A DNA stretch of 49,588 nucleotides, from the NCBI GenBank assembly GCA_944349515.1, contig CALVNE010000005.1, forward strand, positions 1-49,588, written 5' to 3'. Made by a program: the position numbers and the translations under genes. This document shows positions 3,550 through 20,231 of this stretch, in pieces. The notes beneath the pieces are model-generated. The model worked only from the letters and a program-made list of their open reading frames with translations. It was not told where the DNA came from and searched no databases. The DNA comes from an uncultured Clostridia bacterium. Its GTDB lineage: Bacteria > Bacillota > Clostridia > Christensenellales > UBA1242. Positions within the stretch are counted from its first letter, which is position 1; each line of letters opens with the position of its first letter.

Positions 3550-3675
3550 CTTTTGCCTCTACAAATACATTTTATTTTGCTCGCTCTTTTTTGTGAATAT
3601 TGGTGGCATAAAAACTTGAATAACCACTTTTCCCCGCTTAAAATTTATGCGAAAGTTGCTTAAAAAGGAGGTTTA

Positions 3676-3954
3676 GTGGAAGATATAAAGAAAGCTCTTT
3701 TAAAAAAGGCGCTCGGGTTTTGTAGCGACGAGATTGTGGAGGAGTATTCGCTTGACGAACAGGGCAACTCTGTTCTAAACAAGCGCAAGGTCACCAAAAA
3801 ATACAATCCGCCGGATATAAGTGCCATGAAGATATTGCTTGAAAAAGAGAATGCGCTAGACGATAGACTTTCACACATGACCATGTCGGAACTTAAAAAA
3901 GAAAAAAAGCGACTTTTGAAACAATTAAAGGAGGAAGAGAAGAGTGAAAGTTGA
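3676..3954 (+). CDS. Phage terminase small subunit-like protein, apparently without the N-terminal HTH
   Basis: ALLKKALG...E...RKVTKKYNPPDISA resembles the C-terminal part of Firmicutes phage TerS-like proteins. Strong AGGAGG RBS; first gene upstream of the portal. Confidence 0.55.
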   Translation: MEDIKKALLKKALGFCSDEIVEEYSLDEQGNSVLNKRKVTKKYNPPDISAMKILLEKENALDDRLSHMTMSELKKEKKRLLKQLKEEEKSES

Positions 3955-4177
3955 AGAATGTCGTCACACGGTTAAATGCGACACGAGCGGGTGCAAAAAT
4001 TTTGCCAAGTATTACATCTCAACGCGCGGATTTTTAAAGAATGAATTTGCGTTTTGTGAAGAGTGTTTGAAAAGTTTATACAGCGAACTTGCCAAACTTT
4101 TTGTGCCAAGAGCGATAGAGTCGCACTTTAAGCCAGATAGAATAACAAGAAGGAGGAAGAATGAAAAAGCAGAATAA
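3944..4177 (+). CDS. Small putative zinc-finger protein of the phage-like operon
   Basis: C-x4-C...C-x2-C pattern; GGAGGA RBS; overlaps both neighbours. Confidence 0.6.
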   Translation: MKVEECRHTVKCDTSGCKNFAKYYISTRGFLKNEFAFCEECLKSLYSELAKLFVPRAIESHFKPDRITRRRKNEKAE

Positions 4178-6002
4178 TTTAGTTGAAGAGGTTTTAAAGG
4201 ACTTTCAAAATCGAATTTTGGAGCGCAAAAGTTATGAAACTCAGTGGAAGTTAAACATGAATTTCTATATGGGCAATCAATTTTGCACCATCGGTTTTGG
4301 CGGGCTTGTGGAGGATAGTGATAGGCAATATTTTTGGCAAGAAAGAGAGGTGTTTAACCACATTGCGCCGAAAATTGATATCCGCCTTGCCAAACTTTCG
4401 GCAATAAGACCAAAGTTGTATGTTGTGCCGGCGTCCAGCGACGAAAAGGACACCTACACCGCCAAAATGTCGAAGAAGATTTTAGATTCGGTTTCGTCAA
4501 AGTACAACCTTTCGCAAAAGATAAATCAGGCGACTAAGTGGAGCGAAATTTGTGGCACAAGTTTCTATAAGGTGTTCTGGAACTCTAACCTCGGGCAGGT
4601 TGTTGCCATTGAAGAGAGCGGGCGAAAGATAAAGGCGGGCGATGTGGATATTGCCGTTTGCTCGCCATTTGAAATTTATCCGGACTCCACCACTTGCGAG
4701 AATTTGGAAGATTGCCAAAGTATAATTCACGCCAAGGTCTATTCTGCGGAAGAGATTAAGAGAATGTACGGCGTGGAGATTGAGGGGAAGGAGATAAACG
4801 TCTTTTCGCTTGACAGCACCTTCTCAATCGGCGGACTTGGTTACAGCGGAATTGGCACCAAAGTGATTGAAAGCACCAAAAAGGACGCGGGGCTTGTTAT
4901 TGAAAAGTATGTAAGACCGAACGAGGACTATCCAAACGGTAGGCTGATTATCATTGCCGGCGAAACGCTGGTGTTTGACGGCGAGTTGCCTTACATAAAC
5001 GGCGTGGACGGCAAGCGCGATTTTCCGTTCATTAAGCAAGTTAGTTGCGACGAGGTTGGCTCGTTCTGGGGCAAAAGTTTGGTGGAAAGATTGATACCAA
5101 TTCAGCGTGCATACAATGCCGTTAAAAACAGAAAGCACGAGTTTTTAAATAGGCTCACGCTCGGCGTTTTGGCGGTTGAGGACGGGAGCGTGGATATCGA
5201 CAACCTTGAAGAAGAAGGTTTGGCACCGGGTAAAATTTTGGTATATAGACAGGGCGCGAATGTGCCGGAATACCTTGACAGTGAAAGGTTGCCAACCGAT
5301 TTTGAAAAGGAAGAGGAAAAACTGCTTGAAGAGTTCACCACGCTAAGCGGAACTTCGGAGATGGGCGACATGACCACCATTTCCGCGTCCATGAGCGGTG
5401 TGGCGCTGGAACTACTTTTAGACGAAAATCAAACGCGTTTATCTTTCACAACCGACAGCATAAAAAATGCCATAAAAACAATTGGCAAACATCTTTTGAG
5501 GCTGTATAAACAATTCGCAAATATGCCGAGGCTTATGAAGATTGTGGGCGAAAATGGTATGCCGGAACTTTTCTACTTTAAAAGTAGCGACATCTCGAGC
5601 GACGACGTGCAGTTTGAAACGGAGTCGGAGGGCGCTGACACTCTCACGCAGAGGCGCAATACCATTTACACCTTGCTTGATAAGGGGCTATTGCAAGACG
5701 AGGACGGCAAACTTAGTCAAACTGCGAAAAACAAAATTTTGGAGATGATTGGCTTTGGCAATTGGAACTCCACGCAAAATTTAGGCGAACTTCACATACG
5801 CCGTGCGGATAACGAAAACATTGCCATGCTGGACGGGGATAGCGTTCGCGTAAAACAAATTGATGACCACGCGCTTCACATCAACGAGCATATTGCATAT
5901 ATGCTCTCTGGCGAATACGAGAAGAATGCCGACGAAAAAGTGGAAGAGGTATTTTTGAAACACATTGAAGAACACAAAAATCTTTTAAAGGAAGGAGAAT
6001 GA
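4161..6002 (+). CDS. Phage portal protein (podovirus/P22-like)
   Basis: 613 aa. Motifs FNHIAP, SPFEIYPD, SFWGKSLVERLIPIQRAYN, PGKILVY, SGVALELL and a C-terminal DDHALHINEH. Lies upstream of scaffold and capsid genes. Confidence 0.8.
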   Translation: MKKQNNLVEEVLKDFQNRILERKSYETQWKLNMNFYMGNQFCTIGFGGLVEDSDRQYFWQEREVFNHIAPKIDIRLAKLSAIRPKLYVVPASSDEKDTYTAKMSKKILDSVSSKYNLSQKINQATKWSEICGTSFYKVFWNSNLGQVVAIEESGRKIKAGDVDIAVCSPFEIYPDSTTCENLEDCQSIIHAKVYSAEEIKRMYGVEIEGKEINVFSLDSTFSIGGLGYSGIGTKVIESTKKDAGLVIEKYVRPNEDYPNGRLIIIAGETLVFDGELPYINGVDGKRDFPFIKQVSCDEVGSFWGKSLVERLIPIQRAYNAVKNRKHEFLNRLTLGVLAVEDGSVDIDNLEEEGLAPGKILVYRQGANVPEYLDSERLPTDFEKEEEKLLEEFTTLSGTSEMGDMTTISASMSGVALELLLDENQTRLSFTTDSIKNAIKTIGKHLLRLYKQFANMPRLMKIVGENGMPELFYFKSSDISSDDVQFETESEGADTLTQRRNTIYTLLDKGLLQDEDGKLSQTAKNKILEMIGFGNWNSTQNLGELHIRRADNENIAMLDGDSVRVKQIDDHALHINEHIAYMLSGEYEKNADEKVEEVFLKHIEEHKNLLKEGE

Positions 6003-6003
6003 T

Positions 6004-6648
6004 ATGGACGAAGAAAAGTATTGGGAACAACCGGAAGATTTAACCCTTGATGACGCTCAGCAAAGTGAGGTTGAGGAAAATGCGGAAGGCTCCCAAATTG
6101 AGGTTACAACAGGCGACAAAAGCGAAGCGGAAAACGGCGAAACGGTTGGAAAATTTAAAGATGTAAATGCGCTACTTGAAGCCTATAACAACCTTGAAAA
6201 GGAATTCACAAAAAAATGCCAAAGACTATCCGCCTTAGAGAAAGACAAGGTAAAGGAGGACGAGACGCTTAAAAAACAAGTGGACGAAAAACTTTCTTTA
6301 TTCCTTTCTTCGAACGGCGAGGCATCGGCTTACAAGGAAGAACTTTTAGCCAAAGTGAATGAAAATGATAGTCTAAAAAGAATGGACGACCCCTTCGGCT
6401 ATGTTTGGGCAGAAATGGTGTTTGATAAGATTAAAAACCAAAAACTAACCGATGAGTCTGTCAAAAACTACATTTTGAGTAATGAAAATATCAAAAATGC
6501 AGTTATCGAAAATTATATAAATCAACTAGCGGAAAATAAGTCACCGGTCATCATATCATCGAAGGGAAATAGGGTGGCAACGGTTGCCACTCAAAACCCT
6601 TCCAACTTAAATGATGCGAAAAAATATTTAATCGACTTACTTTCCTAA
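6004..6648 (+). CDS. Capsid assembly scaffolding protein
   Basis: Acidic N-terminus, then GKFKDVNALLEAYNNLEKEF (podoviral scaffold-type motif) and a coiled coil; located between portal and capsid genes. Confidence 0.7.
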   Translation: MDEEKYWEQPEDLTLDDAQQSEVEENAEGSQIEVTTGDKSEAENGETVGKFKDVNALLEAYNNLEKEFTKKCQRLSALEKDKVKEDETLKKQVDEKLSLFLSSNGEASAYKEELLAKVNENDSLKRMDDPFGYVWAEMVFDKIKNQKLTDESVKNYILSNENIKNAVIENYINQLAENKSPVIISSKGNRVATVATQNPSNLNDAKKYLIDLLS

Positions 6649-6665
6649 GAAAAAAGGAGAAAAAA

Positions 6666-7901
6666 ATGGTAACTTTACAAAGTGCAGAAAACGCGCTTAA
6701 AAGTGTCTACTTGGGCGTTGTTGCTAACCAACTCAATGTGGCAGCCAGCCCTCTTCTTGCCATGATTAAGCGCTCTACCAGCAACATCTACGGCAAAGAA
6801 ATTCGAAAAGCGGCGCCAATCGGCATAAACGGCGGTATCACTGCTGGCGACGAGGACGGCAAACTTCCAAAGGCACATTCCACTGAATATGTGCAGTTTG
6901 TGGACGAACTTAGAAATCTCTATGGAAAATTGGAGATATCCGACAAGGCGCTTCGTGCAACTTCAAACAATATCACAAGTTTTGTCAATCTTTTAAACGA
7001 CGAAATGGAAAGGCTTATTGAGTCTAGCAATTTTAACCTTGGCAGAATGCTTTATGGCAACGGCACCGGCACTCTTTCCTCTGTTATCTCTTTTAATGAG
7101 TCAAACAAATACCTTGAACTACATGATGTTAGCAAAATTATAGAAGGTATGGTGGTGAGAGGAACCGATGTTGGCGCTCAAAACAGAGACCAAAACGAGG
7201 AGAACTATTTTATCGTTCAATATGTTGACAGAGCGAACAACAGAATTTATCTCGACAAAGGCGGTTATCAATCCATCGGCATAAATACCGGGTCGGACAT
7301 ATATGTTCAATACTCATATAACAAAGAGATGATAGGAATTGAGGGAGTTTTAACTAACGCCAAAATTTATGGGCTTACAAGAGCGGACTATCAGTGGCTT
7401 AAACCTTACCTTTCCACAACAACTTCCTATATCTCGGACAACCTCATTCAAACCGCTATCGACTCACTTGAGGATAACGCAAACTCTAAGATTAACCTCA
7501 TTTCAACCACGAAAGCGGTGAAGAGATTGTATCAAGAATACCTTTCGGCATATAGAAGAAACATCGACATAACCGAACTTGCTGGCGGTTATAAAACAAT
7601 GACTTACAACGGCATTCCGGTGATTGGCGAAAGATTTGTTCCCGCTAACACGATGTATCTTCTTAACACCAACGACTTTACATTGTACGAAATGTGCGAT
7701 TGGAAATGGCTGGAAGATGAGAACGGCAGAATTCTCAAGCAAAATCCAGATTACGCAACATATTCGGCAACGCTGGTTAAATATGCAGAACTATTATGCG
7801 ATAAGCCGGGCGGACAGGGCAAGATAAGCAACATTGCCACCACTCTTACGCCACCTGAAACCTCTGGCACGTCTGACACTGACTCTGGCTCACAAAGTTA
7901 A
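6666..7901 (+). CDS. Phage major capsid protein (HK97-fold, podovirus type)
   Basis: E-loop GDEDGKLP, LYGKLEISD, backbone helix ending GRMLYGNGTG, GGYKTMTYNGIPV, MYLLNT, YAELLCDKP; position after the scaffold gene. Confidence 0.85.
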   Translation: MVTLQSAENALKSVYLGVVANQLNVAASPLLAMIKRSTSNIYGKEIRKAAPIGINGGITAGDEDGKLPKAHSTEYVQFVDELRNLYGKLEISDKALRATSNNITSFVNLLNDEMERLIESSNFNLGRMLYGNGTGTLSSVISFNESNKYLELHDVSKIIEGMVVRGTDVGAQNRDQNEENYFIVQYVDRANNRIYLDKGGYQSIGINTGSDIYVQYSYNKEMIGIEGVLTNAKIYGLTRADYQWLKPYLSTTTSYISDNLIQTAIDSLEDNANSKINLISTTKAVKRLYQEYLSAYRRNIDITELAGGYKTMTYNGIPVIGERFVPANTMYLLNTNDFTLYEMCDWKWLEDENGRILKQNPDYATYSATLVKYAELLCDKPGGQGKISNIATTLTPPETSGTSDTDSGSQS

Positions 7902-7917
7902 TTAAAAGGAAAATAAT

Positions 7918-8238
7918 ATGAAAAAATCATTCGAAATTTATAGCGACTGTTTGGATATTGTTAAAAGACTTAAAGAGATAGACAAGGACTATTTTGTTAT
8001 GTACAACCTTGAAAGAAAGACTTTTGAACTACATAACCATGCGCAAGAAAGAGATACCTTCTGTTTGACCTTGCCTTTTGACTCTCTCGATGAGCGCGCC
8101 ATAACTTTAACAAAGAAAACGCTTTCTGTTAAGCGTGACGAACTTTTTAAGGAAATGGAAGCGGAAAATGAGAGGAACTTAAAATCTAAATACCGCCAAA
8201 TTTTGAATGAAGCGGAGGCAAGATTATATGAAAGTTAA
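7918..8238 (+). CDS. Hypothetical protein of the phage-like operon
   Basis: Intact ORF with AAGGA RBS, co-oriented, overlapping the next gene. Confidence 0.65.
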   Translation: MKKSFEIYSDCLDIVKRLKEIDKDYFVMYNLERKTFELHNHAQERDTFCLTLPFDSLDERAITLTKKTLSVKRDELFKEMEAENERNLKSKYRQILNEAEARLYES

Positions 8239-8785
8239 AGATGTTGTAATTTTAACTTGCCTATTTATTGGCGAAAAGGAACTCGCTACAAAGTTGGAGG
8301 ATAATACCACTTTGAATGATAGGGAGCAGGAGCGAGTGGATACTTTGGTCAGATGTTACAATCTTGTCAATCAAGAGATAGCATCTGACTATCTCCCTTT
8401 TTTATATACTGAAAAGATAGATGTTAATAATTCCATTTTAAACTTCTCGGGGTTAGAAAAGACCCTTGTAAAAGTGTACGAACTTAAAGGGTCTATAAAC
8501 CAAAATGTGCGTTACAAGGCGTATCCAGATTATTTAGAGGTTGTTGGGCACGCCAAAAAGATAACATATTCATACATGCCGGAGGACTTAACTCTTACCG
8601 ATGGCGTTGAGTTTTATAACGGTCTGTCCGCTAGGATTTATGCTTATGGCATGGCGAGCGAGTTTCTTCTCTCTGACGGGCTGAGTGAGGACGCGGAAAT
8701 TTGGGAAGAGCGCTTTAAGGAAAGTTTGTTTGTGTTATCAAGGAGACGGACTGAGGTTGCTCTTCCAAAGAGGAGATGGCTTTGA
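8228..8785 (+). CDS. Putative head-tail adaptor (T7 gp11/P22 gp4-like position)
   Basis: ~185 aa helix/beta/helix layout ending in a basic tail; GGAGG RBS before ATG 8228; synteny before the nozzle-like gene. Confidence 0.55.
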   Translation: MKVKDVVILTCLFIGEKELATKLEDNTTLNDREQERVDTLVRCYNLVNQEIASDYLPFLYTEKIDVNNSILNFSGLEKTLVKVYELKGSINQNVRYKAYPDYLEVVGHAKKITYSYMPEDLTLTDGVEFYNGLSARIYAYGMASEFLLSDGLSEDAEIWEERFKESLFVLSRRRTEVALPKRRWL

Positions 8786-10287
8786 TTTTCTATAAAAATC
8801 TCAAAAAACACAAAAAAACAGAAGAAAAAAACATCACCTTTTCAGTTTTTGGCGAGGGTGTCATTTCTAACGAGGACGATTTGATATCCAAACCCAATGA
8901 ATGCAAATCATTTTTTAATTTTACCTTGCTCGACGGCGCGCTTAAAACCGGGCTTGGCTTTAAGGAACTTGAGGTGCCGGCAAGCACGGACAACTTAACA
9001 TACGTGCATAACTTCGATTTCGCATCTAAAAATATCACCGAAATAAAGGATTTGAACCTTTTTAGATATTTGGATATCGAGGACGATTGTTATTATTATC
9101 ATCTTATAATAATGGACCAAAACGACCAACTTTGGACCCTTCTTTTAATTGATAACGCGGGAGGCTTGCCGATAAGTAAGTCGGCGCTATACTACACCGA
9201 CCTTGTTTCCACTTGCCCATACCGAATCGACCAATTCGATTGCCTTCTTTATTTCACCAAAACCGGCATGATTTACTCTAGCGCGTACAACACCGAAAAA
9301 TTTAACGATGTTCCAGCGCTATTGTCGTGCGTGGTGCATTATAACAAGGTTTTTGGCATTACTAACACAAATAGGAATGAACTTGTCTATCAGTCCAATT
9401 TGGATTTAAGGGAGTGGTCGAGCGAGGCGACAAGCGTCATTGAATTTTTGGACTCCATGGGCGCGTTCACAAAACTTGTTGTGTTTAACGATTACATCTA
9501 CTTGTTTCGCGAAAATGGCATAACAAAAATTTCTTCTTATTCTTCGCGTGATGAATTTTCTTTTACGCACCTATATGCTTCCACCTCTAAAATTTACGAA
9601 AATTCCGTTTGCGCGTGTGGCGAAGTGATATTTTTCGTAACGCGTGAGGGGTTATTCTCTTTCAACGGCACATCGGTAAGCAAAATTTGTGAGGAATACG
9701 ATAACTTCTTTAAAAATTTGGATAACTCAAACTGCTCCTCATGCTGTATGGACGGCAAATATTATCTTGCCACAAAATGTAATTTTGGCGACGGCGAGGT
9801 GATTGGCTGTGAGTCTAATAGCACCATGAAAAACAATGTGCTTTTTGAGGTGGATATTGAGAGTAAAAAGGTGGACCTACTGCGCGGGGTGGATATTAAA
9901 AAAATCGTTTCTGTTGACATTCCATATTACAGCAAAGTGGTGGCGTGCTTCAATGATGCTTCGAACAAAGGCAAGCTTGGTGAACTTGTGCACAGCGGAA
10001 AAAACTTTAATTCGGTGACAAGCAAAAAATGGCAATCTTTCAGCACGGACCTTGGCTATAAAGGCAAAAATAAGAAGATAAAAGAAATTATCTTAAACTC
10101 GTCTTATCCTTGTGAGGTGCAAATAATTTCCGACGTCGAAACTAAAACCTACTCTTTTGTTGGAAGCGACAAAGAACAGCGCGTTCTTGCTTCCGTCAAT
10201 GGAAGAAACTTCCAATTCGTTTTTATTACAAATGAAGCAGAAAGCCATATATCAAAACCGATGATTGTGTTTGATGTTATATCGTGA
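8776..10287 (+). CDS. Putative tail nozzle/head-closure protein (P22 gp10/T7 gp12-like beta-propeller)
   Basis: N-terminal NFTLLDGALKTGLG; propeller-like strands LVVFNDYIYLFRENGITKI and IFFVTREGLFSFNG; C-terminal DLGYKGKNKKIKEI. Confidence 0.65.
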   Translation: MALIFYKNLKKHKKTEEKNITFSVFGEGVISNEDDLISKPNECKSFFNFTLLDGALKTGLGFKELEVPASTDNLTYVHNFDFASKNITEIKDLNLFRYLDIEDDCYYYHLIIMDQNDQLWTLLLIDNAGGLPISKSALYYTDLVSTCPYRIDQFDCLLYFTKTGMIYSSAYNTEKFNDVPALLSCVVHYNKVFGITNTNRNELVYQSNLDLREWSSEATSVIEFLDSMGAFTKLVVFNDYIYLFRENGITKISSYSSRDEFSFTHLYASTSKIYENSVCACGEVIFFVTREGLFSFNGTSVSKICEEYDNFFKNLDNSNCSSCCMDGKYYLATKCNFGDGEVIGCESNSTMKNNVLFEVDIESKKVDLLRGVDIKKIVSVDIPYYSKVVACFNDASNKGKLGELVHSGKNFNSVTSKKWQSFSTDLGYKGKNKKIKEIILNSSYPCEVQIISDVETKTYSFVGSDKEQRVLASVNGRNFQFVFITNEAESHISKPMIVFDVIS

Positions 10288-10395
10288 AGTTGATTTATAG
10301 AAAATACCTTAAATTTTATAATTACAAACTTTTTTATTTGAATAAAGAAAATCTTTTAATAGACAAAGTTTTAAACATAAAAGGTGGGGTGAAAC

Positions 10396-10632
10396 ATGGA
10401 GCTTTGGAAAGAGATAATAAGCATTGTGGTGAGTAATGGTGTTTTTGCTGTTTTGTTTGTTTGGCTGTTTCTCTATCAACTCAAAGACTCGGCAAAGCGT
10501 GAGAAGAATTATCAAGAGACGATAGACAAACTGACAACAAGTTTAAATGTTTTAGACGAAGTGAAAGAGGAGGTAAGCGATATAAAAGAATTTTTGCGAT
10601 GTGAGGAGGAAGAAGATGAAGAGGCTGTTTGA
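10396..10632 (+). CDS. BhlA/UviB-family holin-like peptide
   Basis: SNGVFAVLFVWLFLYQLKDSAKREKNYQETIDKL matches the BhlA/UviB pattern (one TM helix plus coiled coil). Confidence 0.85.
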   Translation: MELWKEIISIVVSNGVFAVLFVWLFLYQLKDSAKREKNYQETIDKLTTSLNVLDEVKEEVSDIKEFLRCEEEEDEEAV

Positions 10633-11167
10633 AAAAATGAAATCATATAGTTTTTGGATATCATTTTCCGGCGCACTTGTGATTTTTCTGAACTGCTTAG
10701 GGAAAATTTTTGGTTTCCAAATTGAGAATGGAGTTGTGGAAGATGTGGTGATGTCGATTGCGGGACTATTGGTTGTTTTAGGTTTTGTGAGTAAAGAAAG
10801 TGACAGCGACGAAAAGGCTGAAAGCGAAAACGAAGAGCCTATCGAAAACGAAAATAGCGAGCAAGACGAAAGTGAAAACGGCGAACAAACCGAAAGTGAA
10901 GAACCTGTCGAGAGAGAAAATGACAATCAAACTGAACACGAAAACGGTGAGCAAAATGGAAGTAATAACATTGAGCAAACCGAAAGCGGAAATGATGTGC
11001 AAAGCGGTATCGGCGAACCTGACGAGGGTGGTAACGATGTGCAAAGTGAAGAGGAAAAAGGCGATGAAACCACAAGCGATAATGCCGAAAACGAAGATGC
11101 TTTAGAAGATAAAACGGATGAAGTTAAGAAAATTTTAAATGAAAATACAATAGATGATAATATGTAA
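10616..11167 (+). CDS. Holin-like 2-TM protein (phi LC3-like) with a long acidic repetitive tail
   Basis: KSYSFWISF...LLVVLGFV two-TM N-terminus, then ~120 aa rich in E/N/D/S. GAGGAGG RBS before ATG 10616. Confidence 0.6.
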   Translation: MKRLFEKMKSYSFWISFSGALVIFLNCLGKIFGFQIENGVVEDVVMSIAGLLVVLGFVSKESDSDEKAESENEEPIENENSEQDESENGEQTESEEPVERENDNQTEHENGEQNGSNNIEQTESGNDVQSGIGEPDEGGNDVQSEEEKGDETTSDNAENEDALEDKTDEVKKILNENTIDDNM

Positions 11168-11182
11168 AATTAAAAATGAAAA

Positions 11183-11196
11183 TGCATAATTATGCA
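11183..11196. promoter_or_regulatory. ARG-box-like palindrome
   Basis: Perfect palindrome TGCATAATTATGCA; a second box TGCATAAATATACA at 11386-11399; same form as the boxes upstream of argR. Confidence 0.45.
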
Positions 11197-11212
11197 AAAT
11201 ATTTGCCACTTT

Positions 11213-11248
11213 ATATGGCCGGCCTTAAAAAGTCGGTCATATTTTATA
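11213..11248 (+). terminator. Intrinsic terminator closing the phage-like operon
   Basis: ATATGGCCGGC/GTCGGTCATAT hairpin followed by a T-rich run. Confidence 0.6.
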
Positions 11249-16070: not shown

Positions 16071-16152
16071 TGGTGCGGGCGGTGGGACTTGAACCCACAC
16101 TCTTTCGAACATGCCCCTTAAACATGCGCGTCTGCCATTCCGCCACGCCCGC
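16071..16152 (-). tRNA. tRNA-Leu (anticodon AAG)
   Basis: Cloverleaf GCGGGCG/CGCCCGC-ACCA; D-loop GGAATGGCAGAC; anticodon arm CATGT-TTAAGGG-GCATG; short variable arm; T-loop TTCAAGT. Confidence 0.95.
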
Positions 16153-16532: not shown

Positions 16533-19500
16533 ATGAGTAAAAATTTAAGGGTTTTTAAGGTTTTTTGTTTGGTCTTGGCGGGACTTATGGCACTCGTCGG
16601 CTTTGGCGCGCTTAGCGCGAGTTTCGCTAGTGCCGAAAAGGTGTACGACGGCGGAACGTTCGAGGACTTTTATGCGCAGGTTATGCGGTTATATGAAGAT
16701 TACGGCGACGTCAACGAGGGCGGGAGCGTGGCGATTAGTAAAAATGAGGTCTTGGAGGATAACGGCGAACTCTATCTTTCCGCCTCCTCATTAAGCGCAC
16801 TCTCTAATGGCAAAGCTAATGGCGTGCAAGTTTTAAGTGCAGATACTGAAAATTATGGCGGGGCGGACGACGAGCAAACTTTGGAAGTTGACATGAAAAA
16901 TGAAGAGTTGCTTGGAAGTCAAACTTCCGCTTTGTCTTATAATAGCGAAAGCGCTGAGGAAGTGGCTGGATATATGCCACTTTCTGACACTGAGTACTTA
17001 GTGGAAGAAATAGGCGAAAAGTATATCATCAGCGAGCCTTCTTACACCAACCGAATTGTCGTTCGATATGAGGGCGACCTTCCGGCGTATAAGACAGAGG
17101 CGTACGCTGAGGGCTTGGGCTGGCATATCTATCAATACACCTCTAAGGAAGCGACCGACGAGGCGTATGAGTATTATAATAGTCTTGATTATGTTGATTT
17201 CGTGGAGTATGACCTTGTGGTTATGGGCGCAAGTTCCGCTGAAAATGACGAGGTTTCCTCTTCGGCAACAACAAGTTATCTTTCATGGGGCGCGTCTTAC
17301 ACCGGCATTGACGAATATCTTTCCTATTTGTCCTATATCTATGACGAGAGCGAACTTGAGCGCGTGTATGTGCCAGTTTTGGATAGCGGAATTAACACCG
17401 ACCACTCTCTTTTTCAAGGGCGCTATTCTAGCGTGTATGGCAGAAATTTCACTAGCACCACAGCGGATGGCACCGTTGTTCCAGACGAAAACTTTGAGGA
17501 CGATAACAACCATGGCTCGCACACCTCGGGTATCATTGCCGACCAAACGCTAGATAATGTCATACTCATTCCGCTTAAAGTGCTCCGCGCAAACGGCAAA
17601 GGGTCGGTGACCATGATTGCAACGGCGATTGAGTATGTCATCTCAATAAAAGAATCTTATAACCTCAACATTCGCGTGATGAACATGAGTTTGGGCTTGG
17701 AAACCGAGGACGGCAGTCCAATTTACAGCAGAACTTTGGAAACAGTTGTAAAAGAGGCGTATAATGCCGATATCATGTCGGTTGTTGCGGCGGGGAATAG
17801 TCATTTTAACACTTCCGCCAGCGCACCAGCAAATATGTATGAAGAGGTGATAGTTGTCTCCGCGCTGGAAGAAAATCCTTACTATGAAAAAGGGCTGTGC
17901 GTGGCGGACTACTCTAATTATGGCTCGACGGTTGACCTTTCTGCACCGGGAACCGCTGTTGAAAGCGCATATAGCAATGTGCTATACGGCGAACTGAGTG
18001 GCACCTCAATGGCGGCGCCTCATGTGACCGCGGTGATTGCCAATCTTTTATCCAACCCTTCATTTTCTTCGCTGAGTAACTCTGAAATTGAAAATCTGCT
18101 TTTTGCTAACGCCATAGACCTCGGCGCGGAGGGCAAGGATATATATTATGGTTACGGCTGTGTGAATATTGCTAATGTTGGCGTGGAAACGGTGGGTGAG
18201 GTCGTTTTCAGTGAGGAAAATTCCTTCCAAGACGCGCCGATAAACCTCACGCTTTCCTTTAGCGACGCGGAATACATCAATGGCACATACAAAATTTTCT
18301 ATACCTTGGACGAAACAAGCCCGACCCTAGACGATCTCGAATACACTTCGCCTATCGAAATTTCCACCACCACCAAAATTACCGCTGTGGCATTCGTCTT
18401 TAACGATTCTGGCGACATTGCGGTGAAGAGTAAGGTCACCTCAATGACATATTACTACGATAATCAAGACCTTGCAAGCAGTTACACGGTGACGGGCAGT
18501 AGTATGTCTGGCACACTTGTTAGTTACAACGGCGAATTGACAACCTTGGTTGTGCCAGAAACAATTAATGGACTTGCGATAACAAGCGTGGCGGAGAATG
18601 CCTTTGCTAACTCCAAGGTAGAAAATTTGATATTTTCCTCGCCTAATTTGCTATTTAATAACTATGCCTTTTATTCCTTAGGGTCCCTCGTTTCGGTGGA
18701 CGCTTTGGGCGCTAAATATGTTGGAGATTACACTTTTGCTAATTGCAGTAATCTGACCACGGTAAATTTACCTTCTGTGTTTACGGTTGGCGACTATGCC
18801 TTCAAGGGCTGTTCGAAGTTAACAGAACTTAGTTTTCCTTTAATAACAAGTGTTGGCACGGGCGCGCTTGAAGATGTCAATTTAACCTCGCTATTTTTGG
18901 GTGGCGATTTAAGAAACTATGGCGACTCATACTTCCATGCCGACACCATTTACGCCTACTCTTCAAGCGGTTACGATACTGTTTTAAAAAATCATACTGA
19001 CGAACTAGTTTTACTCGACACAAGATTTGTCGAAAATTATCCAACGCGTGTCATTTACACCGAATCGGGCGAGGGGACGATCACCTTTGTGTATTATGTC
19101 AATGAAAATGCGTATATAAGCGAGGAACGTCCGGTGTTTATTCAGTATCGCCTCGCGCCAGAAAGTTATTTCGACCAAAATTATCCAAGTGAAACTGTGG
19201 CAAACGATTCGCCGGTCAATTTGGGCGACGGGCTTTTTGAGGTGACCTTCCACTTTGATAACCTCACTGTGGGTGCGGTTTACTCTTTTCAAATTTATAT
19301 ATATGATGCGTATACGCTTGGGTCGTCAGATTTGGCACTCACCTCAGAAACTATAAGCGTGAGAGTTTTAAGTGACGATACCGCAAGTTACAATTTGAAC
19401 TTTGACGAGGGCGATTACAAGATTTTTGTGGACGGCGTGAGCGTGGCAAGCGGATACACGCTTTATGCCGATTTAGATTACAGCATTCAAGTGGTGCCAG

Positions 19501-20231
19501 CAACAAGTTATCGTGTGGAAAATGTGCTTGTCAAAGAGGGCGCGAATAGCACCACGGCGACCTTGGACGGAGATAACACCTTCACCCTTTCAAATGTGAC
19601 AGGTGATGTTACTTTGGAAGTTGAAATGGCAGAAATTGAGGAGTTTGAAATTTCCTTCATATATGGCGACGGGGTGGTTGTGCTTGGGAGTGACAGCGAG
19701 TTTTTATCTTCAAGCGTAATAGTTCCAAGAAATTCGAGCCTCACCTTTTCGCTTTGGCTAAATGATGCGTACGAGGTGACCTATGTTGAGATTGACGGCG
19801 TAAGACAAACGCTAAAAGAGGAGTTTGTGCTAGAAAACATTTTGTCTGACCACACCGTGGAGATTGGCTCTCAACCAAAGTCCTTTGTTATCACTGTAAA
19901 CACGGGCGTGGGCGGTCACGCAATGCAAAATCTGGAAAGGGTGAACTACGGCGAGGATAAGGATATCATACTAGACTGCGAGGAGGGATATTACATTAAG
20001 GCGGTCTATGTGAATGGCGAAGAGGTGGAAATTTTTGGCAATGTTTTGACCTTGAAAAATGTTACAAGCGATATGTCAATTGTGGTGGAGTTTGAAAAGG
20101 AAGGCTCAGATGGTTTTGAAGGCGCTCCACTTGTGATTTTGATAATCTTCGCTGTGGCGCTTCTAATAACCATTCTCTGCGTGGTGTTCTTGTTCACTAA
20201 AAAACCAAATAAAAATAAAAAAATGATGTAA
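16533..20231 (+). CDS. Membrane-anchored S8 (subtilisin-like) serine protease with Ig-like and BspA-type LRR domains
   Basis: Signal peptide; catalytic triad VLDSG / HGSHTSG / GTSMAAPHV; oxyanion AAGN; IFYTLDETSPT domain; VGDYAFKGCSKL repeats; C-terminal TM plus Lys tail. Confidence 0.9.
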   Translation: MSKNLRVFKVFCLVLAGLMALVGFGALSASFASAEKVYDGGTFEDFYAQVMRLYEDYGDVNEGGSVAISKNEVLEDNGELYLSASSLSALSNGKANGVQVLSADTENYGGADDEQTLEVDMKNEELLGSQTSALSYNSESAEEVAGYMPLSDTEYLVEEIGEKYIISEPSYTNRIVVRYEGDLPAYKTEAYAEGLGWHIYQYTSKEATDEAYEYYNSLDYVDFVEYDLVVMGASSAENDEVSSSATTSYLSWGASYTGIDEYLSYLSYIYDESELERVYVPVLDSGINTDHSLFQGRYSSVYGRNFTSTTADGTVVPDENFEDDNNHGSHTSGIIADQTLDNVILIPLKVLRANGKGSVTMIATAIEYVISIKESYNLNIRVMNMSLGLETEDGSPIYSRTLETVVKEAYNADIMSVVAAGNSHFNTSASAPANMYEEVIVVSALEENPYYEKGLCVADYSNYGSTVDLSAPGTAVESAYSNVLYGELSGTSMAAPHVTAVIANLLSNPSFSSLSNSEIENLLFANAIDLGAEGKDIYYGYGCVNIANVGVETVGEVVFSEENSFQDAPINLTLSFSDAEYINGTYKIFYTLDETSPTLDDLEYTSPIEISTTTKITAVAFVFNDSGDIAVKSKVTSMTYYYDNQDLASSYTVTGSSMSGTLVSYNGELTTLVVPETINGLAITSVAENAFANSKVENLIFSSPNLLFNNYAFYSLGSLVSVDALGAKYVGDYTFANCSNLTTVNLPSVFTVGDYAFKGCSKLTELSFPLITSVGTGALEDVNLTSLFLGGDLRNYGDSYFHADTIYAYSSSGYDTVLKNHTDELVLLDTRFVENYPTRVIYTESGEGTITFVYYVNENAYISEERPVFIQYRLAPESYFDQNYPSETVANDSPVNLGDGLFEVTFHFDNLTVGAVYSFQIYIYDAYTLGSSDLALTSETISVRVLSDDTASYNLNFDEGDYKIFVDGVSVASGYTLYADLDYSIQVVPATSYRVENVLVKEGANSTTATLDGDNTFTLSNVTGDVTLEVEMAEIEEFEISFIYGDGVVVLGSDSEFLSSSVIVPRNSSLTFSLWLNDAYEVTYVEIDGVRQTLKEEFVLENILSDHTVEIGSQPKSFVITVNTGVGGHAMQNLERVNYGEDKDIILDCEEGYYIKAVYVNGEEVEIFGNVLTLKNVTSDMSIVVEFEKEGSDGFEGAPLVILIIFAVALLITILCVVFLFTKKPNKNKKMM

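What the first reader, a model, noticed from the sequence alone, without database searches (positions are those of the whole stretch)
3676..11167. Intact podovirus-like head/neck operon with no phage life-cycle genes: candidate domesticated gene-transfer-agent-like particle in a spore-former
Seen: TerS-like, Zn-finger, portal, scaffold, major capsid, hypothetical, adaptor, nozzle and two holins. All ORFs are intact, most have clear RBSs, several overlap, and a terminator closes the block. It sits directly between a host ABC transporter/ykvI pair and the polA operon. No integrase, repressor, replication gene, large terminase, tail fibre, endolysin, att repeat or decayed phage debris is visible. 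By eye, base composition and codon choice match host genes. Known: GTAs such as RcGTA are host-maintained structural clusters without replication/integration genes, with some functions at separate loci; most characterised ones are sipho- or myovirus-like. Inference: a vertically inherited podovirus-derived particle (GTA or DNA-free capsid compartment), perhaps tied to sporulation. I do not recognise a described system matching it.
Basis: partly seen in the sequence, partly recalled or inferred. Interest (0 to 1): 0.92.

Follow-up and report, generated by a model that had tools for sequence, protein, structure and literature searches.

The report
Host-kept podovirus head genes (GTA-like)
A chicken-gut Clostridia bacterium and its relatives have inherited, kept intact and transcribed a set of short-tailed-phage head, neck, DNA-packaging and lysis genes with no genes for a phage life cycle, so it looks like a domesticated gene-transfer-agent-like particle of the kind recently shown in Faecalibacterium.

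Summary
Window 3676-11167 is one operon: TerS-like protein, Cys4 protein, P22-type portal, scaffold, SU10-like capsid, a 106-aa protein, podovirus adaptor and nozzle (both confirmed by fold), and two holins. It lies between an ABC transporter and polA.

It is not a prophage remnant:
- All ten genes are collinear in 19 of 20 same-genus genomes; the 20th is cut by a contig end.
- The capsid gene is single-copy in 24 of 24 genus genomes.
- No shortened ORF was found in 100 species genomes.
- dN/dS is 0.01-0.26, as in the flanking host genes.
- Codon usage is host-like.
- The portal, nozzle and TerL trees match the polA tree.

The "missing" large terminase exists as an orphan gene on another contig. 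It is conserved in 57 of 60 genus genomes, the same rate as polA, and sits beside a sigma-like regulator and an SH3 protein. In other families TerL directly precedes the operon. Across the order TerL is all-or-none by family (142 of 301 genomes), and its tree follows the host families.

One chicken-gut metatranscriptome yields contigs that span exactly promoter to terminator.

Particles, packaged DNA and transfer were not tested. No fibre, receptor-binding protein or endolysin was found. The closest described system is FpGTA (Nat Commun 2026); homology to it could not be tested.

The parts
3616..3644 (+). sigma-70-like promoter match (TTGAAT-17-TAAAAT) in the 126-bp gap after the ABC ATPase gene
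   Evidence: Consensus scan. The RNA-library contig of run X15 begins at 3663. A TTGA...TATAAT-like pair with an upstream TGGCA box recurs in orthologous upstream regions; this was seen by eye and not tested statistically.
3676..3954 (+). p92, small basic/acidic protein, candidate small terminase subunit without a recognisable DNA-binding domain
   Evidence: phrog_309 (terminase small subunit), E 2.3e-4 only. Lies between TerL and portal in other families. Conserved core seen in a 30-sequence alignment. No PDB sequence match.
3944..4177 (+). p77, small Cys-rich (C..C..C...CxxC) protein, putative zinc ribbon
   Evidence: No family hit. Cys pattern read in the window and in the L075/L090 orthologues. 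ORF found in 94 of 100 genome loci.
4161..6002 (+). portal protein, P22/SU10 type
   Evidence: PF16510, 74.2 bits (cut-off 26.1); phrog_156, 7.6e-37. 55-68% identical across the genus.
6004..6648 (+). scaffolding protein (assigned by position between portal and capsid)
   Evidence: No significant family. Collinear in all relatives.
6666..7901 (+). major capsid protein, SU10-like HK97 fold
   Evidence: phrog_14242, 1.6e-46. Atlas nearest clusters carry PF17236 SU10_MCP in 21-29% of members. Single copy in 24 of 24 genus genomes.
7918..8238 (+). p106, conserved small protein of unknown role (head completion or neck?)
   Evidence: No Pfam, PHROG or PDB-sequence hit. Conserved even in distant phage relatives.
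8207..8785 (+). head-to-tail adaptor
   Evidence: AF2 pLDDT 90.9. Foldseek PDB: Pa223 9nwi_A 5.4e-6; also SU10, crAss001, PhiM1, T7 gp11 adaptors.
8776..10287 (+). tail nozzle (beta-propeller hub)
   Evidence: AF2 pLDDT 88.8. Foldseek PDB: Pa223 9nwi_Y 2.2e-20 TM 0.71, VP1 8zkk_O 5e-17; also GP4, P22, SU10, T7 gp12.
10396..10632 (+). BhlA-family holin
   Evidence: PF10960, 3.4e-18.
10601..11167 (+). second holin with a long acidic C-terminal tail. The likely true start is ATG 10616, in frame and 6 nt after GAGGAGG.
   Evidence: phrog_297 holin, 1.5e-9, residues 4-121. Sequence read. The acidic tail is not shared by most orthologues.
11213..11242 (+). intrinsic-terminator-like hairpin followed by a T run; end of the operon
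   Evidence: The RNA-library contig of run X15 ends at 11208.

Best explanation
This is the head-neck-lysis operon of an anciently domesticated podovirus. It is a gene-transfer-agent-like ('viriform') system that the host lineage inherits vertically and keeps under selection.

The full system in this genome has two loci:
- Locus 1 is window 3676-11167: TerS-like p92, Cys4 protein, portal, scaffold, capsid, p106, adaptor, nozzle and two holins.
- Locus 2 is on contig C19 of the same assembly: a sigma-factor-like regulator (c165), a secreted SH3 protein (c253) and the large terminase.

Shown:
- The gene identities.
- Collinearity across the genus and beyond.
- Single copy and intact ORFs.
- Purifying selection.
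- Co-divergence with host genes.
- An ancestral one-locus layout: c165, c253, TerL, p92, Cys4, portal ... nozzle, DUF7934, holins.
- RNA-library contigs that span the operon.

Inferred mechanism:
1. On an unknown signal the regulator switches on the operon.
2. Portal, scaffold and capsid build procapsids.
3. TerL, with the DNA-binding-domain-less p92, fills them headful with non-specific host DNA.
4. Adaptor and nozzle close the portal.
5. The co-transcribed holins, with an unidentified wall hydrolase, lyse the producer cell and release the particles.

Whether the particles deliver DNA to other cells is open. No fibre or receptor-binding protein was found, and this genus has lost the DUF7934 gene that follows the nozzle elsewhere.

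The confidence of 0.6 is for the DNA-packaging, GTA-like reading as a whole. Domestication and vertical inheritance alone I put at about 0.9.
For: Conservation within the genus:
- The capsid gene gives one match in each of 24 of 24 genus genomes, at 44-60% identity.
- All ten genes are collinear in 19 of 20 genus loci; the 20th is cut by a contig end. The ABC transporter lies upstream in all 17 loci that reach that far.

The orphan TerL:
- It lies at C19:17285-18775 and carries Terminase_6N and Terminase_6C, both above cut-off.
- It is present in 57 of 60 genus genomes. polA is found at the same rate, 57 of 60.
- Its orthologue (56-61% identical) lies directly upstream of p92/portal in other families.
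- c165 and c253 flank TerL in 17 of 17 genus loci. In other lineages they were found in 17 and 18 of 30 loci.
- Walker A is present in 69 of 69 orthologues, and 97 alignment columns are invariant.

Selection and integrity:
- No ORF falls below 80% of the median length for 9 genes across 100 species-level loci. Most missing genes lie in loci cut by contig ends; the exceptions are p92 in 2 long loci and the Cys4 protein in 4.
- NG86 dN/dS is 0.01-0.26 for cluster genes, the same range as ABC, polA and ruvX. In the unsaturated pairs dS is similar to that of the flanks.

Tree congruence:
- The portal and polA trees share 11 of 13 splits, including all strongly supported ones. TerL and polA share 10 of 13.
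- On a 48-row TerL tree, 13 host-family labels need 13 changes (12 is the minimum). The shuffled mean is 35.1, and 0 of 200 shuffles did as well.
- Across the order TerL is all-or-none by family. Examples are f1 16/16 and f8 15/16, against 0/16 in six families; the total is 142 of 301 genomes.

Other support:
- Codon usage is host-like, unlike that of the genome's ordinary prophage.
- In metatranscriptome X15, contigs cover 3663-6763 and 6795-11208 at word depths of 124 and 209. Contigs on the flanks have depths of 4-14.
- Precedent: FpGTA, and GTA-like whole-genome packaging reported for Christensenellaceae MAGs without a locus being identified (PMC12946183).
Against: - There is no direct evidence for particles, packaged DNA or transfer.
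- No tail fibre, receptor-binding protein, needle or ejection protein was found, and no endolysin was identified as part of the system. The genome has two unlinked Amidase_3 genes whose roles are unknown. Amidase_2 and GH25 were not found in a 93.5%-complete MAG. DUF7934 is missing from this genus.
- The TerS assignment is weak.
- The RNA evidence comes from assembled contigs of runs that were chosen because they hold this stretch. In a second RNA run (X16) the cluster contigs (depth 8-23) lie below the flank contigs (about 48). Depth per contig cannot rank genes, and DNA carry-over cannot be fully excluded.
- The capsid tree is partly discordant: one sister clade has a very divergent capsid and scaffold.
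- All genomes are MAGs.
Confidence: 0.6

Rival explanations
1. A domesticated particle whose selected role is not gene transfer. It could be a PBSX-like killer or bacteriocin-type particle, a programmed-lysis or eDNA-release device, or a function tied to sporulation (mother-cell lysis). DNA packaging would then be incidental or absent.
For: - No fibre or receptor-binding protein was found, and DUF7934 has been lost in this genus.
- The holins are co-transcribed with the structural genes.
- BhlA-family proteins carry the PHROG label 'bacteriocin production or immunity'.
- The organism has Spo0A and SpoIVA.
- The FpGTA authors leave the same alternative open for their element.
Against: - TerL is as conserved as polA, with its ATPase and nuclease motifs intact. 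This is hard to explain without DNA packaging.
- No tail-like killing apparatus is encoded.
- No link to sporulation genes was seen at either locus, apart from an unrelated ytxC-thrS neighbour.
Confidence: 0.22
2. A helper-dependent satellite or capsid-forming island (cf-PICI-like). It would build its own heads and borrow missing parts, such as fibres and lysin, from a co-resident phage.
For: - Fibre and lysin genes are absent.
- The genome also holds an ordinary siphovirus-type prophage at about 30-60 kb on contig C1.
- In one IMG/VR record a C1-like prophage sits inside the element.
Against: - No integrase, replication, excision or att features were found. Position is fixed and inheritance is vertical.
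- The element encodes its own podovirus adaptor and nozzle, which would not fit a siphovirus tail.
- Relatives have 0.7-1.3 Mb genomes and each gave a single capsid match; their prophage content was not examined.
Confidence: 0.06
3. A defective prophage remnant that is simply decaying, or a temperate phage that repeatedly integrates at one hotspot.
For: - IMG/VR lists 150 relatives as 'viral' contigs.
- The nearest cultured phages share the portal-capsid module at about 24% identity.
Against: - No truncated ORF was found in 100 genomes.
- dN/dS matches that of host genes.
- Trees are congruent with polA and with the host families.
- The element is single-copy and universal in the genus.
- Five of the six longer IMG/VR loci examined that carry the cluster-type TerL have host-gene flanks; the sixth, L161, is the element split by an inserted prophage.
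- The phage-like relatives have a different TerL (23-29% identical) and capsids only 30-31% identical.
Confidence: 0.03
4. A DNA-free protein compartment (encapsulin-like shell with a portal) that encloses protein or RNA cargo.
For: - An HK97-fold capsid is kept by the host.
- TerL is absent from the operon itself.
Against: - The cognate TerL is conserved, intact and ancestrally adjacent.
- A portal, adaptor and nozzle make sense only for DNA entry and exit.
- The holins imply release by lysis.
Confidence: 0.04

Closest known systems
FpGTA of Faecalibacterium prausnitzii (Borodovich et al., Nat Commun 2026, PMC12946183; abstract, section 9 and found passages read)
   Same: - Both are podovirus-like, host-conserved elements of gut Clostridia without replication or lysogeny genes.
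- Both head operons hold a TerS without an obvious DNA-binding domain, portal, scaffold, capsid and short-tail proteins.
- In both, functions are split over two loci.
- The ancestral layout of the present element, with TerL at the front of a roughly 10-kb operon, resembles FpGTA operon I (10.5 kb, ten ORFs).
   Different: - Here TerL sits at a separate locus with a sigma-like regulator.
- Here the holins close the head operon. In FpGTA they sit in a second operon with baseplate, fibre, RBP and endolysin, none of which was found here.
- FpGTA has EM, proteomics and a ~9-kb DNA band; this element has none.
- A portal-profile search of 399 Clostridia genomes found strong hits mainly in this order and one other family.
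RcGTA-type gene transfer agents of Alphaproteobacteria (recalled; reviews seen only as search listings)
   Same: - A domesticated phage head/packaging cluster, inherited vertically across an order-scale clade.
- Under purifying selection, with genes at several loci.
- The small terminase lacks sequence specificity.
   Different: RcGTA is siphovirus-like, lives in a different phylum, and has known host regulators (CtrA, GafA). No sequence relation is expected.
PBSX of Bacillus subtilis (recalled; mentioned in PMC12946183)
   Same: - A Gram-positive, chromosomally fixed phage-derived particle that packages host DNA and is released by lysis.
- Its late genes are driven by a sigma-like factor (Xpf, recalled), which parallels c165.
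   Different: PBSX is myovirus-like with a contractile tail, kills rather than transfers, and is one contiguous ~28-kb block.
P22 / SU10 / Pa223-type podoviruses
   Same: - The portal family, capsid type, and adaptor and nozzle folds are shared.
- The gene order terminase-portal-scaffold-capsid-adaptor-nozzle-(needle) matches P22 (order recalled).
   Different: No needle, ejection proteins, tailspike, replication or lysogeny genes. Identity to cultured phages is only about 24%.

Membership tests
Gene transfer agent / viriform | Phage-derived structural genes without replication, integration or lysogeny modules | tested here: met
   Host genes abut both ends, and no att-like repeat longer than 11 bp was found. 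The same holds in 20 genus loci.
Gene transfer agent / viriform | Vertical inheritance with the host under purifying selection | tested here: met
Gene transfer agent / viriform | Genes dispersed over more than one chromosomal locus | tested here: met
   TerL, c165 and c253 lie on contig C19, and the head operon on C5. On shared contigs of relatives the two loci lie about 10-150 kb apart.
Gene transfer agent / viriform | Particles are produced | not testable with these tools
   The only evidence is RNA-library contigs that cover the operon.
Gene transfer agent / viriform | Packages random host DNA in pieces too small to carry its own genes | not testable with these tools
   Needs VLP DNA reads. 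Only an intact TerL is shown.
Gene transfer agent / viriform | Delivers DNA to recipient cells | not testable with these tools
   No fibre or RBP was identified, so delivery is doubtful.
FpGTA (Faecalibacterium) | Sequence homology to FpGTA I proteins (e.g. RCH50849.1, RCH50851.1) | not testable with these tools
FpGTA (Faecalibacterium) | Operon I: TerS, TerL, portal, scaffold, capsid and short-tail proteins in one ~10.5-kb block | tested here: inconclusive
   The ancestral layout is alike. In the window TerL is elsewhere.
FpGTA (Faecalibacterium) | Operon II with baseplate, fibre, RBP, holin and endolysin | tested here: not met
   The holins lie inside the head operon. No fibre, RBP or endolysin was found next to either locus.
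Prophage (intact or defective) | Integrase/att, lysogeny and replication modules; patchy distribution; decay if defective | tested here: not met
Capsid-forming satellite (cf-PICI-like) | Integrase, replication and excision functions; mobility; use of helper tails | tested here: not met
   No such genes, a fixed position and its own adaptor and nozzle.
Pfam PF16510 P22_portal | Score above the gathering cut-off | tested here: met
   74.2 bits against a cut-off of 26.1.
Pfam PF10960 Holin_BhlA | Score above the gathering cut-off | tested here: met
   65.8 bits against a cut-off of 22.6.
Encapsulin | HK97-fold shell without portal or terminase, with cargo-loading peptides | tested here: not met
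   A portal, adaptor, nozzle and cognate TerL are all present.

The most novel reading that the evidence does not exclude
This would be a second, probably independent, podovirus-derived gene transfer agent. It would have been domesticated before the families of a whole order of small-genome gut Clostridia diverged (record titles: 'Christensenella sp.', 'Candidatus Caccovivens', uncultured Clostridia). It would be the unidentified genetic basis of the GTA-like whole-genome packaging reported for Christensenellaceae in faecal VLPs. In this genus it has been reorganised into two loci under a sigma-like regulator and has lost its needle-position gene, yet it is still strongly induced in vivo.
Probability: 0.4. 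Interest if true: 0.8.

Novelty: new member of a known kind. Interest (0 to 1): 0.72.

Why it matters
GTAs with known genes are few, and almost all are alphaproteobacterial. The only described podovirus-like one, FpGTA, dates from 2026.

This element is conserved in about half of the sampled genomes of an entire order of gut Clostridia, including 0.7-1.5 Mb genomes that keep little dispensable DNA. That would make capsid-mediated exchange a lineage-wide trait.

It would give a gene set to look for in virome, proteome and transcriptome data. It would offer candidate genes for the Christensenellaceae packaging events that were seen without a locus.

It is also a natural series for studying how a phage is taken apart by its host: one-locus and two-locus forms, forms with and without DUF7934, and one form interrupted by a prophage.

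Tried and rejected
Searches and analyses that led nowhere:
- Profile searches of PDB sequences with alignments of p503, p192, p106 and p92 gave nothing significant. Fold prediction was needed, and it settled p192 and p503 only.
- p106, the Cys4 protein, the scaffold, c253 and DUF7934 stay without a function.
- Homology to FpGTA could not be tested. The one genome-contig scan kept only the 80 best loci, all close relatives. The genome search gives no names, and the Atlas gives taxa only at phylum level.
- A shared promoter motif for the two loci was looked for by eye only. A TGGCA-N6-TTGA...TATAAT arrangement upstream of p92 and a TTTGTC box upstream of TerL were seen. They were not tested and are not claimed. 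A sigma-54 reading was rejected because the GG-GC spacing is one base too long (the consensus is recalled).
- A lysin search of the genome found two Amidase_3 genes unlinked to either locus, and no Amidase_2 or GH25. No lysin is assigned.
- TerL-like genes outside the order do not mark the same element. G410 has 57% TerL identity with an unrelated portal and capsid.
- The first TerL family tree contained two wrong-frame ORFs on branches of length 10. It was redone with the right ORFs, and only one search is used.
- RNA runs X17 (probably DNA) and X19 (small share, short contigs) add nothing. Parts of the stretch without cover in any run are not interpreted.
- Supplementary files of PMC12946183 (the proteomics and gene tables that may list FpGTA proteins) are closed and were not requested.

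Full report
WHAT IS THERE

On the + strand of the window lie ten tightly packed ORFs:
- p92, 3676-3954
- p77, 3944-4177
- portal, 4161-6002
- a 214-aa protein, 6004-6648
- capsid, 6666-7901
- p106, 7918-8238
- p192, 8207-8785
- p503, 8776-10287
- a BhlA holin, 10396-10632
- a second holin, 10601-11167

Family searches confirm the portal (PF16510, 74.2 bits; phrog_156), the capsid (phrog_14242, 1.6e-46) and both holins (PF10960; phrog_297). They give only a weak small-terminase hint for p92 (phrog_309, 2.3e-4).

Alignments of 32-33 orthologues gave confident AlphaFold models. p192 (pLDDT 90.9) matches podovirus head-to-tail adaptors. p503 (pLDDT 88.8) matches podovirus nozzles, with Pa223 at E 2e-20 and TM 0.71, followed by VP1, GP4, P22, SU10 and T7.

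The block is flanked by ABC ATPase and permease genes on one side and by a small membrane protein, polA, ruvX and DUF1292 on the other. A promoter-like site lies at 3616-3644 and a terminator-like hairpin at 11213-11242.

THE MISSING TERMINASE

The assembly is 1.49 Mb in 90 contigs and 93.5% complete. It has two large-terminase genes:
- One lies in an ordinary siphovirus-type prophage on contig C1.
- The other, at C19:17285-18775, stands alone among host genes. It carries both the ATPase and the nuclease Pfam domains.

This orphan TerL is found in 57 of 60 genus genomes at 62-88% identity, almost always once. polA is detected at the same rate, 57 of 60.

In other families of the order its orthologue (56-61% identical) lies immediately upstream of p92 and the portal. 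It is therefore the cluster's own terminase, separated from it in this lineage.

Two further genes travel with TerL. One is a 165-aa protein resembling sigma-70 region 4, phage sigma factors and late regulators (Pfam E 1.3e-5, just under the cut-off; phrog_1740 3e-7). The other is a secreted SH3_3 protein. They flank TerL in 17 of 17 genus loci, and in 17 and 18 of 30 loci of other lineages.

In those other lineages a 296-339-aa coiled-coil-rich DUF7934 protein follows the nozzle, where P22 has its needle gene (P22 order recalled). It is not found in the window's genome or in the 20 genus loci.

DOMESTICATED, NOT DECAYING

- The capsid gene gives one match in each of 24 of 24 genus genomes (0.7-1.3 Mb) at 44-60% identity.
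- In 20 genus loci, all ten genes are collinear in 19; the last locus is cut by a contig end. The ABC transporter lies upstream wherever the contig reaches it (17 loci). polA is the downstream neighbour in only 5.
- Over 100 species-level loci, no ORF of nine genes is shorter than 80% of the median. Most of the missing genes lie in loci cut by contig ends; the exceptions are p92 in 2 long loci and the Cys4 protein in 4. The second holin was under-counted by my coverage rule because the window's copy has an extra acidic tail.
- NG86 dN/dS for cluster genes is 0.01-0.26, as for ABC, polA and ruvX. In the two unsaturated pairs, cluster dS (0.02-0.23) is like flank dS (0.03-0.16).
- In 16 genomes with all markers, the portal and polA trees share 11 of 13 splits, TerL and polA 10 of 13, and nozzle and polA 10 of 13. 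All strongly supported portal and TerL splits recur in the polA tree. Distance matrices correlate, with 0 of 2000 permutations as high.
- Codon usage matches the genome (r = 0.90, against a mean of 0.81 for random host gene sets). The C1 prophage does not (r = 0.35; GC 0.34 against 0.44).

DEPTH AND BREADTH

- With TerL at E<=1e-60, 142 of 301 genomes of the order match, nearly always once, and the pattern is all-or-none by family. Examples are f1 16/16, f8 15/16, f11 13/16 and f4 11/16, against 0/16 in f5, f9, f21, f26, f27 and f31.
- On a TerL tree of 48 rows from 13 families, the family labels need 13 changes where 12 is the minimum. The shuffled mean is 35.1, and 0 of 200 shuffles did as well. 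One search had two wrong ORFs and is superseded.
- A scan of species genomes found at least 591 portal relatives. The record titles of the best 80 read uncultured Clostridia, 'Christensenella sp.' or 'Candidatus Caccovivens sp.'.
- IMG/VR holds 150 relatives, mostly 4-16 kb fragments.
  - Five of the six longer loci examined that carry the cluster-type TerL have host-gene flanks.
  - The sixth, a 67.7-kb 'provirus' record, is the element split by a ~59-kb insertion that holds a C1-like prophage and serine recombinases.
  - Contigs that look like real phages have another TerL (23-29% identical) and capsids only 30-31% identical.
- Cultured phages reach only about 24% identity. The Jasmine-like Arthrobacter phages carry tailspike and endolysin genes next to the capsid gene.

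EXPRESSION

The stretch occurs in chicken-gut runs from 10 studies. In metatranscriptome X15, two contigs cover 3663-6763 and 6795-11208. That runs from just after the promoter-like site to just before the terminator. Their word depths are 124 and 209, against 4-14 for contigs on the flanking genes. In X16 the cluster contigs (8-23) lie below the flank contigs (about 48).

These are assembled contigs of runs picked because they hold the stretch, so they show that the operon is covered as a unit in an RNA library. The step at its borders argues against DNA carry-over. Expression levels cannot be ranked from them.

MECHANISM

The most likely reading is a GTA-like particle system. A sigma-like regulator switches on the operon. 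Procapsids form and are filled by an intact terminase together with a small subunit that lacks a DNA-binding domain. The portal is closed by the adaptor and nozzle. The cell is then opened by the co-transcribed holins.

Every functional step is inferred. Only the parts, their conservation and their transcription are shown.

Against a full GTA stands the lack of any fibre, receptor-binding protein, ejection protein or assigned lysin, together with the loss of DUF7934. A PBSX-like or lysis-linked role is therefore the main rival.

COMPARISON WITH WHAT IS KNOWN

FpGTA of Faecalibacterium (PMC12946183) is the closest described system. It is podovirus-like, with operon I holding TerS, TerL, portal, scaffold, capsid and other genes. 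Operon II holds baseplate, fibre, RBP, holin and endolysin. It makes ~40-nm heads carrying about 8.5-9 kb of DNA.

That paper also reports GTA-like packaging of Christensenellaceae MAGs without naming genes. Three further library searches found no other paper on FpGTA and none describing a GTA in Christensenellales.

Homology to FpGTA could not be tested here. A portal-profile search of 399 Clostridia genomes hit mainly this order and one further family. This is a hint, no more, that the two are at best distant.

Noticed in passing
G000 contig C1, about 30-60 kb (outside the window): An ordinary siphovirus-type prophage with its own TerL, portal, protease and capsid. GC is 0.34, GC3 is 0.24, and codon usage is unlike the rest of the assembly (r = 0.35). 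It is either a recent arrival or a mis-binned contig.
   Followed up: partly
L243-L246 (IMG/VR record G738, 67.7 kb): The element is interrupted between the capsid region and the adaptor/nozzle by about 59 kb. The insert holds a C1-like prophage and large serine recombinases. This recalls the intervening elements that split sporulation genes, and excision might restore the operon.
   Followed up: partly
Capsid and scaffold genes of loci L028-L032, L048-L063 (sister clade of the window's lineage): Capsid identity (44-47%) and scaffold identity are far lower than portal identity (65-68%), and the clade sits on a very long branch. No closer donor was found among about 150 capsids. This is either an allele replacement from an unsampled source or a burst of change.
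   Followed up: partly
L235, L240, L241 (genus g212, family f87, another order of the class): The TerL relative (about 55% identical) and the portal relative (37-38%) lie on different contigs in the 7 of 8 sampled genomes that carry the 53-56% TerL type. G651 has only a 44% TerL, next to a second, weaker portal match. tblastn found no capsid next to either gene. This may be another, more dispersed domesticated system.
   Followed up: partly
L075:7097-9373, L090:5893-8394: In one lineage a 758-833-aa secreted, C-terminally anchored surface protein is inserted between TerL and p92. It has a weak M26-N / InlB B-repeat likeness.
   Followed up: no
G000: C10:9432-9737, C2:15402-15701, C2:75451-75756, C10:14386-14688, C53:6704-6964: Five short ORFs (114-165 aa) consist of little more than a Spo0A_C domain. 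They exist besides the full Spo0A on C18.
   Followed up: no
window 10800-11160: The second holin has a ~120-residue acidic, repetitive (E/N/D/S-rich) tail. Most orthologues lack it.
   Followed up: no
window 3560-3650 and orthologous upstream regions; G000 C19 18776-18945: Conserved boxes were seen by eye: TGTGA and TGGCA just upstream of a TTGA...TATAAT promoter before p92, and a TTTGTC box before TerL. They were not tested.
   Followed up: partly
window 16071-16152 (-) and 16533-20231 (+): A tRNA-Leu(aag) gene and a 1232-aa S8 subtilase with BspA-type LRR and Fn3-associated domains lie downstream of the polA group.
   Followed up: no
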